Positions 41,121 to 49,097 of a stretch of 64,000 nt of DNA are shown here, in pieces. Positions within the stretch are counted from its first letter, which is position 1; every line of letters starts with the position of its first letter. The translations under genes were made by a program, and so were the position numbers. This DNA is from a virus, in IMG/VR virus record IMGVR_UViG_3300024346_000012, one strand, 5' to 3'. The notes beneath the pieces are model-generated. The model was not told the origin of the DNA, ran no database searches, and saw only the letters and a list, made by a program, of their open reading frames with translations.

Positions 41121-41387
41121 CTAGGTAAAAGAGATAACATTTGCCACACGGAAAGAGCGATACTCAGATTTTTCTTGATCAAATGCTACTATTACTTCTT
41201 CATTAATAGCTCTAACTTTTTTCTGAGTAAGTGGCTCATCTTTCTTAGCATCTGGCAAAACATCTGCCATAAGAGTGCAAGTCATATCACGCTCTTCACC
41301 GTTTACTTTTTTAAATATGACACGGCAAACTCGCTCTTTGAGCTGAGCAACCATGTATTCACGAGAACTTGAATCAATTTCATTCAT
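41121..41387 (-). CDS. Sm-like/SH3 (WYL_2-like) protein
   Basis: VIFKKVNGEERDMTCTL...FD..KSEYRSFR motif common in T4-like phages. Confidence 0.75.
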   Translation of the reverse strand: MNEIDSSSREYMVAQLKERVCRVIFKKVNGEERDMTCTLMADVLPDAKKDEPLTQKKVRAINEEVIVAFDQEKSEYRSFRVANVISFT

Positions 41388-42016: not shown

Positions 42017-42222
42017 TACGCTGCATCCTTATAATACTGATCAAATGTGCCATAGATACGTAACTTAACATTACGAATATGGTTACATGGTTTGCGCGGT
42101 GCTTTTTTACAAGAACAGCTGAAACCTTCAGGATGCATGGTGACAATACCTTTGGCATATTGCCACTCGGTGCCTACCATCCAATGGCCCTTAGTATCGA
42201 TGAGACTGGTACTAAAAATCAT
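42016..42222 (-). CDS. SWIM-type zinc finger protein
   Basis: CSC-x7-CNH. Confidence 0.65.
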   Translation of the reverse strand: MIFSTSLIDTKGHWMVGTEWQYAKGIVTMHPEGFSCSCKKAPRKPCNHIRNVKLRIYGTFDQYYKDAA

Positions 42223-42440
42223 TCTGTGTATCTCCTATCAACTGCAGATGCATCCCACACATATGGCAGCTTCTTATACTTTGGTCCAAAGATAACGACA
42301 TCATCATCGCCAACTTCACTAAACACACGATCATCATAATCGCGGTGGATATAAACCGGTCCACCGAAGATCCTATGAGCGCGGACGTACTCGTCGCCTC
42401 TAAATCCTACATAGTGTACAGTCCTCATAACATCCTCCAA
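42219..42440 (-). CDS. Hypothetical protein
   Basis: TTG 42440 (AAGGAG SD) or ATG 42428 (GGAGG SD); ATGA overlap with the next gene. Confidence 0.65.
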   Translation of the reverse strand: MEDVMRTVHYVGFRGDEYVRAHRIFGGPVYIHRDYDDRVFSEVGDDDVVIFGPKYKKLPYVWDASAVDRRYTE

Positions 42441-42700
42441 ACTCCTTAATACTGAATAGTAGTCTTAACTTAGTCCCTCACCAGGATTTTACGGGTTCGG
42501 TTGCTAGCACCTACCTACCTGTTACGTTTCTTTGCTCGTACTATGCAGTATTAAGAAGTTTTCGTGGGAGAGCCTTTCTGCAGTGGCTCTCCCCTTATCT
42601 GCATTTCACGTATGCAGCAACCGACTGGGTTTAATTCGGTACCAGTGCCTATACCGACCTGTAATGCACCTCGAGGGTTTAAAGCAAACAGGGTTTTTCG
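42439..42700 (-). ncRNA. Candidate structured non-coding RNA / cis-regulatory leader
   Basis: GC-richer intergenic gap containing a 23 bp inverted repeat, several hairpins and crossing helices (see findings). Confidence 0.6.
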
Positions 42701-42713
42701 ATAACAACTAAGA

Positions 42714-42968
42714 TTAATCCCAATCGTTATCGAATTTCGTTGTATAGTGGAGCGTTTCGCCATAATACTCTTGAGCATATTTAGAAGCATCAGTCCACTG
42801 ATAGATATTAGACTCCTTAGGAATTTTAATTTCTTTGGCTTTACGTGAAGCAGTCTTAGCACGAGAGATAACCGATGCAGTCCGTTTACGGATCTTAGAC
42901 ATTTTCTTCTTGCGCTCAGCGATTTCTTTGATAAGAGCTAAACGGTCAGCTTTTTGTGAAGGTGTCAT
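42714..42968 (-). CDS. Hypothetical basic protein
   Basis: First ORF after the early promoter at 43.0 kb. Confidence 0.65.
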   Translation of the reverse strand: MTPSQKADRLALIKEIAERKKKMSKIRKRTASVISRAKTASRKAKEIKIPKESNIYQWTDASKYAQEYYGETLHYTTKFDNDWD

Positions 42969-42998
42969 AATATAATCTTTCTCTTTGTTTCTATAACC

Positions 42999-43027
42999 AT
43001 CCTACAGCATGTAGAAAGCAATGTACA
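42999..43027 (-). promoter_or_regulatory. Early promoter TGTACA-N17-TAGGAT
   Basis: Promoter family member. Confidence 0.8.
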
Positions 43028-43084
43028 CGTTTAATTTCATTTTTATGCGTTTTTGTTTTGTTTAAAAACAACGGCTTATAATTT
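43003..43084. repeat. 82 bp direct repeat, copy 1 (promoter cassette)
   Basis: 76/82 identical to 50479..50560 by manual alignment. Confidence 0.9.
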
Positions 43085-48855: not shown

Positions 48856-48932
48856 TGGTCTCGATGAAAGGATTCGAACCTCTGACATCCTGCTCCCAAA
48901 GCAGGCGCGCTACCAGACTGCGCTACACCGAG
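48856..48932 (-). tRNA. tRNA-Pro(TGG)
   Basis: CTCGGTGTAGCGCAGTCTGGTAGCGCGCCTGCTTTGGGAGCAGG...GGTTCGAATCC...ACCA cloverleaf. Confidence 0.95.
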
Positions 48933-48938
48933 TTTATT

Positions 48939-49015
48939 TGGCGAACACGGAAGGATTCGAACCCTCGACCTAGTGCTTAGAAGGCACTTGCTCTATCCAG
49001 CTGAGCTACGTATTC
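48939..49015 (-). tRNA. tRNA-Arg(TCT)
   Basis: GAATACGTAGCTCAGCTGGATAGAGCAAGTGCCTTCTAAGCACT...GGTTCGAATCC...GCCA. Confidence 0.95.
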
Positions 49016-49020
49016 ATTTA

Positions 49021-49097
49021 TGGTGCTCCCAGCAGGACTCGAACCTGCAACCGACCCGTTATGAGCGGGGCGCTCTAACCAATTGAGCTATCGGAGC
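49021..49097 (-). tRNA. tRNA with CAT anticodon (probably Ile2; otherwise elongator Met)
   Basis: GCTCCGATAGCTCAATTGGTTAGAGCGCCCCGCTCATAACGGG...GGTTCGAGTCC...ACCA; lacks initiator features. Confidence 0.9.

What the first reader, a model, noticed from the sequence alone, without database searches (positions are those of the whole stretch)
42439..42700. Unrecognised ~260 nt highly structured RNA element with pseudoknots
Seen: a 23 bp inverted repeat (42439-42461 with 42539-42561, 2 mismatches, one a G-U on the minus strand) encloses a bubble and an inner stem. A 9 bp helix (42497-42505 with 42616-42624) crosses it. Hairpins: 42566-42593 (9 bp), 42599-42617, 42636-42657 and 42658-42692. The loop at 42642-42646 can pair with 42624-42628, forming an H-type pseudoknot. 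The element lies in an early transcript in an otherwise gene-dense region, and the 3' arm covers the AAGGAG SD of the next gene. I cannot match it to tRNA, tmRNA, RNase P, SRP or a known riboswitch. Inference: a new phage ncRNA. It could be a conformational translational switch, or the stem-bubble-stem part could be a 6S-like polymerase decoy or protein sponge.
Basis: partly seen in the sequence, partly recalled or inferred. Interest (0 to 1): 0.75.

Follow-up and report, generated by a model that had tools for sequence, protein, structure and literature searches.

The report
Two phage RNAs with self-pairing loops
The 260-base gap in this uncultured marine T4-like phage holds two separate, conserved folded RNAs that match no catalogued family. 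Their hairpin loops always carry self-complementary six-letter words that change in step, which suggests (untested) that copies of each RNA stick together as the phage RNAs ROOL, GOLLD and manA do.

Summary
The genes here run on the minus strand. The gap between an 84-aa gene and a 69-aa gene holds two independent RNA modules, not one 260-nt RNA.

- **modA (42554-42699):** four hairpins plus a small pseudoknot. There are 60 distinct copies in marine viral contigs; 96% of cells pair and 19 of 25 pairs show double changes.
- **modB (42440-42560):** a 20-22 bp closing stem around a nearly invariant core. There are 23 distinct variants, and 13 stem pairs show double changes.
- **RNA, not DNA or protein:** G-U pairs far outnumber A-C mismatches, so the sense-strand RNA is what folds. 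Coding is excluded, and Rfam has no match.
- **Context:** the modules sit at different places in related phages. modA follows gp32 (as a terminator), p84 or p69, or sits next to tRNAs. modB usually sits just upstream of, or inside, tRNA arrays.
- **New point:** the apical loops carry covarying palindromes. In modA P4 all 60 are palindromic (CUGCAG, CCUAGG, CCGCGG, CUCGAG). This is the signature used to support symmetric kissing loops in OLE and GOLLD.

Not supported: the 9-bp crossing helix, Shine-Dalgarno (SD) masking, and a 6S-like decoy. Earlier notes of this scan flagged both modules in other genomes. Function is unknown and oligomerisation is inferred.

The parts
42714..42968 (-). Upstream 84-aa gene (p84), no family assigned. 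Conserved neighbour in this phage clade.
   Evidence: ORF list. 64 related loci in IMG/VR. No Pfam match above cut-off and no PHROG match.
42697..42734 (-). Hairpin P0 spanning the p84 stop codon: UUCGAUAAC (42726-42734) pairs with GUUAUCGAA (42697-42705). An A-rich linker follows.
   Evidence: Palindrome I3. The arms are conserved in p84-context relatives. L306 keeps a hairpin in a shifted register.
42554..42699 (-). modA, a ~140-nt structured RNA module: P1, S1/P2 pseudoknot, P3, P4.
   Evidence: Covariance-model hit at 127.6 bits, E = 2e-24. 60 distinct homologues. 96.2% of cells pair, 19 of 25 pairs have double changes, and 0 of 500 shuffles reach this.
42658..42692 (-). modA P1 hairpin. 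Its apex carries the palindrome CCUCGAGG (42669-42676).
   Evidence: Five of the six basal pairs covary. 31 of 42 distinct P1 interiors hold a palindrome of 6 nt or more, against 10.4 in shuffles. There are 12 different hexamers.
42625..42656 (-). modA pseudoknot region. S1 is CGGUA (42652-56) with UACCG (42637-41). P2 is CUGG (42642-45) with CCAG (42625-28).
   Evidence: P2: pair 78-120 is U-A in 46 and C-G in 12; 100% of cells pair. S1: four invariant pairs, and a fifth that is C-G in 30, U-A in 3 and unpaired in 20. In L024, L116 and L097, S1 and P2 appear instead as two consecutive hairpins.
42599..42617 (-). modA P3 hairpin, CUGCAU/AUGCAG. The loop is ACGUGAA, with ACG conserved.
   Evidence: Three of five pairs covary. 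Relatives' loops hold ACGU, UACGUA, CACGUG, UUCGAA or UGUACA. 5 of 19 distinct loops have a 6-nt palindrome, against 0.8 expected.
42566..42593 (-). modA P4 hairpin (9 bp). The loop is A-CUGCAG-AAA, with the palindrome at 42578-42583. In relatives that follow gp32 the same hairpin is followed by a U run and acts as the terminator. The window copy ends CCCACGAAAAC with no U run.
   Evidence: Eight of nine pairs covary. The loop hexamer is self-complementary in 180 of 180 cells. Position pair (2,5) is U-A in 47 and C-G in 13. Pair (3,4) is G-C in 47, U-A in 12 and C-G in 1. Tails are listed.
42440..42560 (-). modB, a ~120-nt structured RNA module closed by a 20-22 bp stem (42539-42560 with 42440-42461).
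   Evidence: Inverted repeat I1. 23 distinct variants from a metagenome scan. 13 of the 20 closing-stem pairs have double changes, 97% of cells pair, and 0 of 500 shuffles reach this.
42473..42538 (-). modB core, CGAGCAAAGAAACGUAACAGGUAGGUA ... GAACCCGUAAAAUCCUGGUGAGGGAC. It encloses a variable hairpin (42499-42511) whose loop holds the palindrome GCUAGC (42503-42508).
   Evidence: The core columns are invariant or nearly so in A4, although 20 nt were fixed by the search pattern. Relatives' loop palindromes are GCUAGC, CCUAGG, CCAUGG, UCGCGA, GAUAUC and GCUGGC (wobble).
42219..42438 (-). Downstream 69-aa gene (p69). ATG at 42426-42428, preceded by the likely SD GGAGG at 42434-42438.
   Evidence: ORF list. 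GGAGGATGTTATG is conserved in L001, L003 and L005. 158 related stretches in IMG/VR.

Best explanation
The gap encodes two independent small structured non-coding RNAs, modA (~140 nt) and modB (~120 nt). Both belong to a pool of interchangeable RNA cassettes that an uncultured clade of marine T4-like phages carries in its early gene block and in its tRNA arrays.

They are transcribed as part of longer sense-strand transcripts. In this window neither has its own promoter or terminator by a simple consensus scan.

Inferred steps:
- They are cut out by host RNases. The 20-22 bp closing stem of modB looks like an RNase III substrate. In relatives, RNase P cleavage at an adjoining tRNA would set the other end.
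- Each RNA then associates with copies of itself through symmetric (self-complementary) kissing loops. modA has two to three such loops with different sequences (P1, P4, sometimes P3) and modB has one. The products could be dimers or higher closed or chain-like homo-oligomers, as solved for the phage-associated RNAs ROOL, GOLLD and manA.

What the assemblies do is not known. The working guess is a scaffold or sequestering particle linked to the phage's tRNA and translation take-over module.
For: Shown:
- Real, conserved RNA structure. modA: 96.2% of cells pair, 19 of 25 pairs have double changes, 0 of 500 shuffles reach this. modB: 97% pair, 16 of 32 pairs have double changes, 0 of 500.
- The sense strand is what folds. 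G-U versus A-C cells are 56 vs 8 in modA and 71 vs 4 in modB.
- Not coding. 35 of 60 modA copies have stops in all six frames, and lengths are not multiples of three.
- No Rfam family.
- Modularity. modA follows gp32 with a U-run terminator, or follows p84 or p69, or sits 5-8 nt before a tRNA. modB occurs with or without modA and usually lies just upstream of, or within, tRNA arrays; L349 reads tRNA-Pro, modA, modB, tRNA-Trp.
- The closest relatives (L086-L088; gp32 92% identical) carry a different cassette in the same gap.
- Palindromic loops. The P4 hexamer is Watson-Crick self-complementary in 180 of 180 cells, in four forms, with no one-sided change. One covarying pair joins adjacent nucleotides, which cannot pair within one chain.
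- Enrichment of 6-nt palindromes: P4 11 of 11 distinct loops (0.66 expected), P1 31 of 42 (10.4), P3 5 of 19 (0.8), modB hairpin 11 of 12 (2.3). The P2 loop serves as an internal control at 1 of 25 (2.15 expected).
- In the same P1 columns the series UGUACA, UGUACG, CGUACG looks like a wobble intermediate.
- Among the copies where both loops carry a 6-nt palindrome, P1 and P4 share the same one only in L300.
- Loop-loop duplexes are predicted at -4 to -12 kcal/mol.

Precedent:
- The same palindrome-switching argument supports the symmetric kissing loops seen by cryo-EM in OLE and GOLLD (PMC12286853).
- The manA RNA of cyanophages, under 200 nt, forms 8-, 10- and 60-mers through kissing loops (bioRxiv 10.64898/2026.07.01.735769).

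Weak: contigs from metatranscriptome libraries of four studies carry modA and/or modB of relatives. One 555-nt contig of depth 75 runs from modA through modB into a tRNA.
Against: - Oligomerisation is inferred from sequence only. No tool here can model RNA-RNA complexes.
- A subfamily of modA (P1 loop AAGUGGC) has no 6-nt palindrome in P1. P3 has only ACGU or nothing in many copies.
- Perfect palindromes at the P1 apex in some copies could simply be hairpins with 4-nt palindromic loops.
- RNA contigs cannot show transcript ends, strand or level, and DNA carry-over is not excluded.
- The processing steps (RNase III, RNase P) are analogy, not data.
- No cultured phage carries either module, so nothing is known about expression timing or phenotype.
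- The invariant modB core is partly an ascertainment effect of the 20-nt search pattern.
Confidence: 0.55

Rival explanations
1. Purely cis-acting mRNA elements. These would be intergenic stem-loop cassettes that act as RNase III/E processing sites, 3'-end protectors or terminators for the polycistronic early transcripts, with no function as free RNAs and no self-association.
For: modA's P4 doubles as an intrinsic terminator after gp32. In the window both modules lie inside a transcript with no promoter or terminator of their own. A 20-22 bp stem is a classic RNase III substrate. A further hairpin spans the p84 stop codon.
Against: A processing site or terminator does not need about 60 invariant unpaired nucleotides, a conserved pseudoknot junction, or loops that stay palindromic through compensatory changes. 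The modules also sit inside tRNA arrays, where there is no mRNA to protect.
Confidence: 0.2
2. A protein-binding decoy or sponge RNA. The conserved cores would bind a host or phage protein, for example an Sm-like protein such as the WYL_2 product encoded 1.2 kb downstream. The palindromic loops would bind a dimeric protein rather than another RNA.
For: The single-stranded cores are strongly conserved. A WYL_2 / Sm-like gene (41121-41387) is a constant member of the same gene block. An earlier scan note (e1-5798942) reports another phage RNA that always lies downstream of an Sm/WYL-like gene.
Against: At least 12 different hexamers occupy the P1 loop, and 4 the P4 loop. Only self-complementarity is kept, not identity. 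That fits base pairing better than recognition by a sequence-specific protein. There is no 6S hit in Rfam. The WYL_2 link is plain synteny within a conserved block.
Confidence: 0.1
3. DNA-level elements. These would be mobile or recombinogenic intergenic cassettes (in the manner of the promoter-stem-loop cassettes proposed for T4-type phages, recalled from memory) or palindromic protein or nuclease sites, with the hairpins relevant as DNA.
For: The modules sit at different loci in close relatives and are bordered by a recurring AGUUUG. All the loop words are palindromes in double-stranded DNA too.
Against: The strong excess of G-U over A-C (56:8 and 71:4) ties the fold to one strand, and that strand is always the sense strand of the neighbouring genes. 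The palindrome in P4 is off-centre in its loop (A-CUGCAG-AAA), so it is not an extension of a DNA inverted repeat. Related copies are present in RNA libraries.
Confidence: 0.07
4. A riboswitch or conformational translational switch that controls the downstream 69-aa gene.
For: In the window the 3' arm of modB ends 3 nt before the GGAGG SD of p69.
Against: The downstream partner is not constant: it can be p69, p113, WYL_2, tRNAs or nothing. The AAGGAG in the arm is not conserved. The stem does not cover the GGAGG. No riboswitch family matches.
Confidence: 0.04

Closest known systems
ROOL and GOLLD RNAs (Rfam families; cryo-EM structures in PMC12286853)
   Same: Encoded by phages and prophages, often beside tRNA islands. 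No known function. They form homo-oligomers held by kissing loops. The evidence for symmetric loops is the same kind: palindromes that switch (GGCC/GAUC/AGCU).
   Different: They are 500-800+ nt ornate RNAs, whereas modA and modB are 120-140 nt. There is no sequence or model similarity (no Rfam hit). Oligomerisation is solved for ROOL and GOLLD and only inferred here.
manA RNA motif of cyanophages and Photobacterium (bioRxiv 10.64898/2026.07.01.735769)
   Same: An RNA under 200 nt from marine T4-like cyanophages. It assembles through loop-loop kissing into discrete 8-, 10- and 60-mers. It is the closest in size and phage type.
   Different: The manA kissing contacts are between different loops (L5-L7', L8-L9'), not self-complementary ones. 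manA is in Rfam and does not match this region. manA is described as a 5'-UTR element.
Phage T4 stable RNAs C and D (rnaC 139 nt, rnaD 119 nt; NC_000866 70908-71171)
   Same: Two small stable non-tRNA RNAs of similar sizes, sitting in tandem at the tRNA cluster of a T4-type phage, with function still unknown. From memory, species 1 RNA is an RNase III substrate in vitro.
   Different: The modA model finds nothing in the T4 region (best 7.7 bits, E = 0.45, on a tRNA). rnaC carries a tRNA-like T-arm, which modA and modB lack. No tRNA was called here. In this window the pair lies 6 kb from the tRNA cluster.
HIV-1 dimerisation initiation site (established knowledge, from memory)
   Same: A hairpin loop of 9-10 nt made of a 6-nt palindrome flanked by purines. 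The commonest modA P1 loop reads AA-UGUACA-A (DIS reads AA-GCGCGC-A) and P4 reads A-CUGCAG-AAA. Subtypes differ by palindromes that stay self-complementary.
   Different: Retroviral genomic RNA versus small RNAs of a dsDNA phage. It is an analogy of mechanism only.

Membership tests
Any Rfam 15 family (riboswitches, ribozymes, 6S, tmRNA, RNase P, SRP, ROOL, GOLLD, manA, wcaG, PhotoRC and others) | Covariance-model score at or above the family's gathering threshold | tested here: not met
   At gathering threshold the whole window yields only three tRNAs at 48856-49097. A permissive scan of 42300-42850 gives only chance hits, none with E below 0.6 and all far under their thresholds. Eight related loci yield only a tmRNA and a tRNA.
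T4 rnaC / rnaD stable RNAs | Sequence and structure homology to T4 species 1 and 2 RNAs; a tRNA-like 3' domain in rnaC | tested here: not met
   The modA model run over the T4 tRNA region with filters off finds no hit on rnaC or rnaD. The rnaC fold shows a T-arm. ARAGORN finds no tRNA-like gene at 42439-42700. modB was not compared by a model.
T4 rnaC / rnaD stable RNAs | Position inside or next to the phage tRNA cluster, co-transcribed with tRNAs | tested here: inconclusive
   Met in many relatives: modB lies 3-300 nt upstream of tRNAs in about 20 of 37 loci, and L349 reads tRNA-modA-modB-tRNA. Not met in the window, where the tRNAs are 6 kb away.
Homo-oligomeric kissing-loop RNAs (ROOL / GOLLD / OLE / manA type) | Loop nucleotides that covary so as to stay self-complementary, including adjacent positions that cannot pair within one chain | tested here: met
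   P4 hexamer: 180 of 180 cells are Watson-Crick, with four palindromes and adjacent positions 3 and 4 covarying. Enrichment in P1, P3, P4 and the modB hairpin but not in the P2 control loop.
Homo-oligomeric kissing-loop RNAs (ROOL / GOLLD / OLE / manA type) | Physical formation of defined RNA-only multimers | not testable with these tools
   Needs native gel, SEC or cryo-EM. Only nearest-neighbour duplex energies were computed.
6S RNA / RNA-polymerase decoy | A long rod-like hairpin with a central open-promoter-like bubble; match to the 6S models | tested here: not met
   No 6S hit. The modB interior is an asymmetric 77-nt conserved core with its own hairpin, not a two-stranded bubble.
Riboswitch / translational operator | A constant association with a regulated downstream gene, and an expression platform (SD or terminator) that alternates with the aptamer | tested here: not met
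   The downstream neighbours vary. The AAGGAG is not conserved. The GGAGG SD lies outside the stem.
Intrinsic terminator | A G+C-rich hairpin followed directly by a U run | tested here: not met
   The window's P4 is followed by ACGAAAAC, and no terminator-like site is found in 42439-42700. Relatives that follow gp32 do have the U run.

The most novel reading that the evidence does not exclude
modA is a natural three-valent RNA 'tile'. Its P1, P3 and P4 loops carry three different self-complementary words, which is what three two-fold interfaces of a closed D2 tetramer or a larger cage would need. modB, and the other stem-closed cassettes that replace it in relatives, would be further self-assembling units. 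Marine T4-like phages would then carry an exchangeable tool-kit of small RNA-only nanostructures next to their tRNA genes, working like miniature ROOL/GOLLD/manA particles.
Probability: 0.3. Interest if true: 0.85.

Novelty: new variant of a known kind. Interest (0 to 1): 0.72.

Why it matters
Natural RNA-only assemblies were until recently thought rare. ROOL, GOLLD, OLE and, in a 2026 preprint, the cyanophage manA motif show that phage-linked RNAs can build dimers and cages, but what they do is unknown.

modA and modB would add two small, abundant marine families that are easy to synthesise. Their predicted interfaces are unusually clear, with up to three different palindromic loops that covary. 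This makes self-assembly directly testable with loop-swap mutants.

They also extend the 50-year-old puzzle of T4's stable RNAs C and D. Small orphan RNAs around phage tRNA clusters appear to be a general, modular and exchangeable part of T4-type genomes.

Tried and rejected
- Rfam, at gathering threshold and in a permissive scan, gave nothing for the region or for eight related loci.
- blastn against 50,697 cultured phage records gave no match for the window region or for the gp32-type modA.
- The modA model, with filters off, found nothing around gp32 of the nearest cultured relatives (Phage C48C1, Melnitz) or in the T4 tRNA/rnaC/rnaD region.
- No whole genome is held for this window.
It was replaced by two tighter patterns.
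- Coding of the overlapping 103-aa frame is rejected.
- The 9-bp crossing helix is rejected because it is not conserved.
- SD masking is rejected.
- An integron attC-like recombination site was considered and dropped. The flanks do not fit the GTTRRRY core as I recall it, the interior is sequence-conserved, and no integrase was seen.
- The idea that the conserved AAUGUACA in P1 is a -35 box of an internal promoter was considered. It is not kept in the window or in gp32-type copies, so it was dropped.
- RNA-library contigs: parts of the stretch have no cover in the four runs laid. Contigs cannot give ends, strand or level.
- A quick tree of the short modA alignment gives 8 switches of the P4 palindrome. 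The tree is poorly resolved, so only the minimum of 3 is used.

Full report
**Setting.** The window comes from an uncultured marine T4-like myovirus. It encodes gp32, a baseplate wedge protein, ribonucleotide reductase and a 2OG-Fe(II) oxygenase. Its gp32 is at most 52% identical to that of any cultured phage; the nearest are Phage C48C1, Melnitz and cyanophages. All genes around the finding run on the minus strand. The finding is therefore the 273-nt gap between an 84-aa gene (p84, 42714-42968) and a 69-aa gene (p69, ATG at 42426-42428). No whole genome is held for the window.

**The observation.** The 23-nt inverted repeat, the 9-bp P4 hairpin, the other hairpins and the perfect 9-bp long-range match are all in the sequence. 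On its own the fold is only modestly better than shuffles (z = -2.4 on the sense strand and -2.2 on the other). The case therefore rests on comparison with relatives.

**Two modules, not one RNA.** I used the two flanking proteins to fetch 144 IMG/VR loci.
- blastn and nhmmer split the element in two. Positions 54-157 of the RNA (modA) recur at about 80% identity in many contigs. The rest (modB) recurred in only three.
- modA also lies at other places: directly after gp32, after p69, or elsewhere.
- The window's closest relatives (L086-L088; gp32 92% and p113 93% identical) carry a different structured element in the p84-p69 gap and have modA 3 kb away.

**modA.**
- A 16-sequence alignment (A1) gave four covarying helices and a covariance model (R1).
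- Two tighter DNA patterns followed by cmsearch raised the set to 83 hits, 60 of them distinct. The window copy scores 127.6 bits at 42554-42698.
- On that alignment 96.2% of cells pair and 19 of 25 pairs have double changes. No shuffle of 500 reaches this, and sliding the partners drops pairing to 36-49%.
P2 covaries. S1 is almost invariant, with one weakly covarying extra pair. In three divergent copies the two helices appear as consecutive hairpins.
- After gp32, the P4 hairpin is followed by a U run and serves as the terminator. After p84, as in the window, it ends CCCACGAAAAC and transcription must read on.

**modB.**
- One metagenome scan with a 20-nt core word returned 37 loci and 23 distinct variants.
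- The closing stem is 20-22 bp and 13 of its 20 counted pairs show double changes (97% paired, 0 of 500 shuffles).
- The interior is nearly invariant apart from one variable hairpin. Part of that invariance is forced by the search word.
- modB occurs with modA in 13 loci and without it elsewhere. It usually sits just before or inside tRNA arrays. In L349 the order is tRNA-Pro, modA, modB, tRNA-Trp.
- In relatives, at least three other stem-closed cassettes occupy the same slot, each followed by AGUUUG and sometimes by tRNA-Trp.

**RNA, sense strand, non-coding.**
- G-U pairs outnumber A-C mismatches 56 to 8 in modA and 71 to 4 in modB.
- The modules are always co-oriented with their neighbours.
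- 35 of 60 modA copies have stops in all six frames, and lengths vary without a period of three. This disposes of the overlapping 103-aa frame.
- Contigs from metatranscriptome libraries of four studies carry relatives' modA and/or modB. One 555-nt contig of depth 75 runs from modA through modB into a tRNA. This is weak support, because contigs show neither ends nor level.

**The palindromic loops.**
- Every one of the 60 distinct modA copies has a 6-nt palindrome in the P4 loop: CUGCAG (46), CCUAGG (12), CCGCGG (1) or CUCGAG (1).
- If the hexamer is treated as pairing with itself, all 180 cells are Watson-Crick. Positions 2/5 and 3/4 change only together, and 3/4 are neighbours that cannot pair within one chain.
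- The flanking loop letters do vary.
- P1 apices hold 12 different hexamer palindromes in 31 of 42 distinct segments, against 10.4 expected. They include the series UGUACA, UGUACG, CGUACG in the same columns.
- P3 loops hold a 6-nt palindrome in 5 of 19 distinct loops, against 0.8 expected.
- The modB hairpin holds GCUAGC, CCUAGG, CCAUGG, UCGCGA or GAUAUC.
- The P2 loop, an internal control, shows no enrichment (1 of 25 against 2.15 expected).
- Among copies where both loops carry a 6-nt palindrome, P1 and P4 share the same word only in L300.
- Kretsch et al. used this exact argument for the symmetric kissing loops seen by cryo-EM in OLE and GOLLD (PMC12286853).
- A 2026 preprint shows that the cyanophage manA motif, under 200 nt, builds 8-, 10- and 60-mers through kissing loops.
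- Predicted loop-loop duplexes are -4 to -12 kcal/mol.

- The 9-bp helix between the modules is not kept where modB is the same but modA differs.
- AAGGAG in the 3' arm is not conserved. The likely SD is GGAGG, outside the stem.
- The downstream partner varies.
- Nothing supports a 6S-like fold.

**Comparison and novelty.**
- Neither module is in Rfam or in any cultured phage record.
- T4's rnaC and rnaD are the positional and size analogues (139 and 119 nt, in tandem at the tRNA cluster). They are not homologues of modA, and rnaC is tRNA-like.
- By inferred mechanism the closest are ROOL, GOLLD and manA.
- I found no paper that describes these motifs.
- Earlier notes of this scan flagged the modA look-alike after gp32 in two other genomes, a modB look-alike in another, and several other orphan RNAs in phage tRNA arrays. 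Those are leads, not support.

**Verdict.** These are two new, well-supported structured RNA families in a modular cassette system of marine T4-like phages. Self-association through symmetric kissing loops is the best-supported mechanistic inference. The biological role is unknown.

Noticed in passing
L032, L060, L062, L066, L070, L074, L089, L053, L057 (p84-p69 gap); L012:470-712: A different structured cassette of about 190 nt occupies the same gap in close relatives. Its closing stem covaries (CCUCAUACG/CGUAUGAGG, CAUCAGCG/CGUUGAUG, CUGCAUACG/CGUAUGCAG). One hairpin loop switches between GGCC, GAUC, UGAUCA and CCGG. It has no Rfam match.
   Followed up: partly
L003:2903-2990, L005:721-805, L012:467-560: Two further short stem-closed units (types CUAUAUUAACCUGCG... 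and CUAUUUUAACUAGCG...) follow modA in other contigs. They share an inner motif, GAGGG-hairpin-CCUAAAAG. All units end just before AGUUUG.
   Followed up: no
window 41121-41387 (-): A WYL_2 / Sm-like SH3 barrel gene (PF10902, E = 6e-12) is a constant member of this gene block and is often the next gene after modA in relatives. It is a possible RNA-binding partner. So far the link is synteny only.
   Followed up: no
window 42985-43030 (-): Upstream of p84 the minus strand reads GTGTACA, 17 nt, TAGGAT. The same GTGTACA...TAG(T/A)AT arrangement precedes genes in L057 and L076. It is probably this clade's early-promoter form, and the sigma-70 scan missed it.
   Followed up: no
L280:1120-1167, L300:940-985: In other contexts modA is preceded by another hairpin with a conserved loop, GCCUAGCAAUUNCGCUAAA. 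This may be one more cassette.
   Followed up: no
L294:1207-, L280:1310-: In these contigs modA ends 5-8 nt before a sequence that starts like a tRNA (GGUUCCUUAGCUCAGC).
   Followed up: no
L001:13-496; L335:8254-8668; L337:1728-2166; L348:11702-12101: Permuted (two-piece) tmRNA genes lie a few kb from the modA/modB cassettes in several relatives.
   Followed up: no
window 48856-49097 (-): A tRNA cluster (Pro-UGG, Arg-UCU, Met-CAU) lies 6 kb upstream. In relatives the same tRNAs sit directly next to modB.
   Followed up: partly
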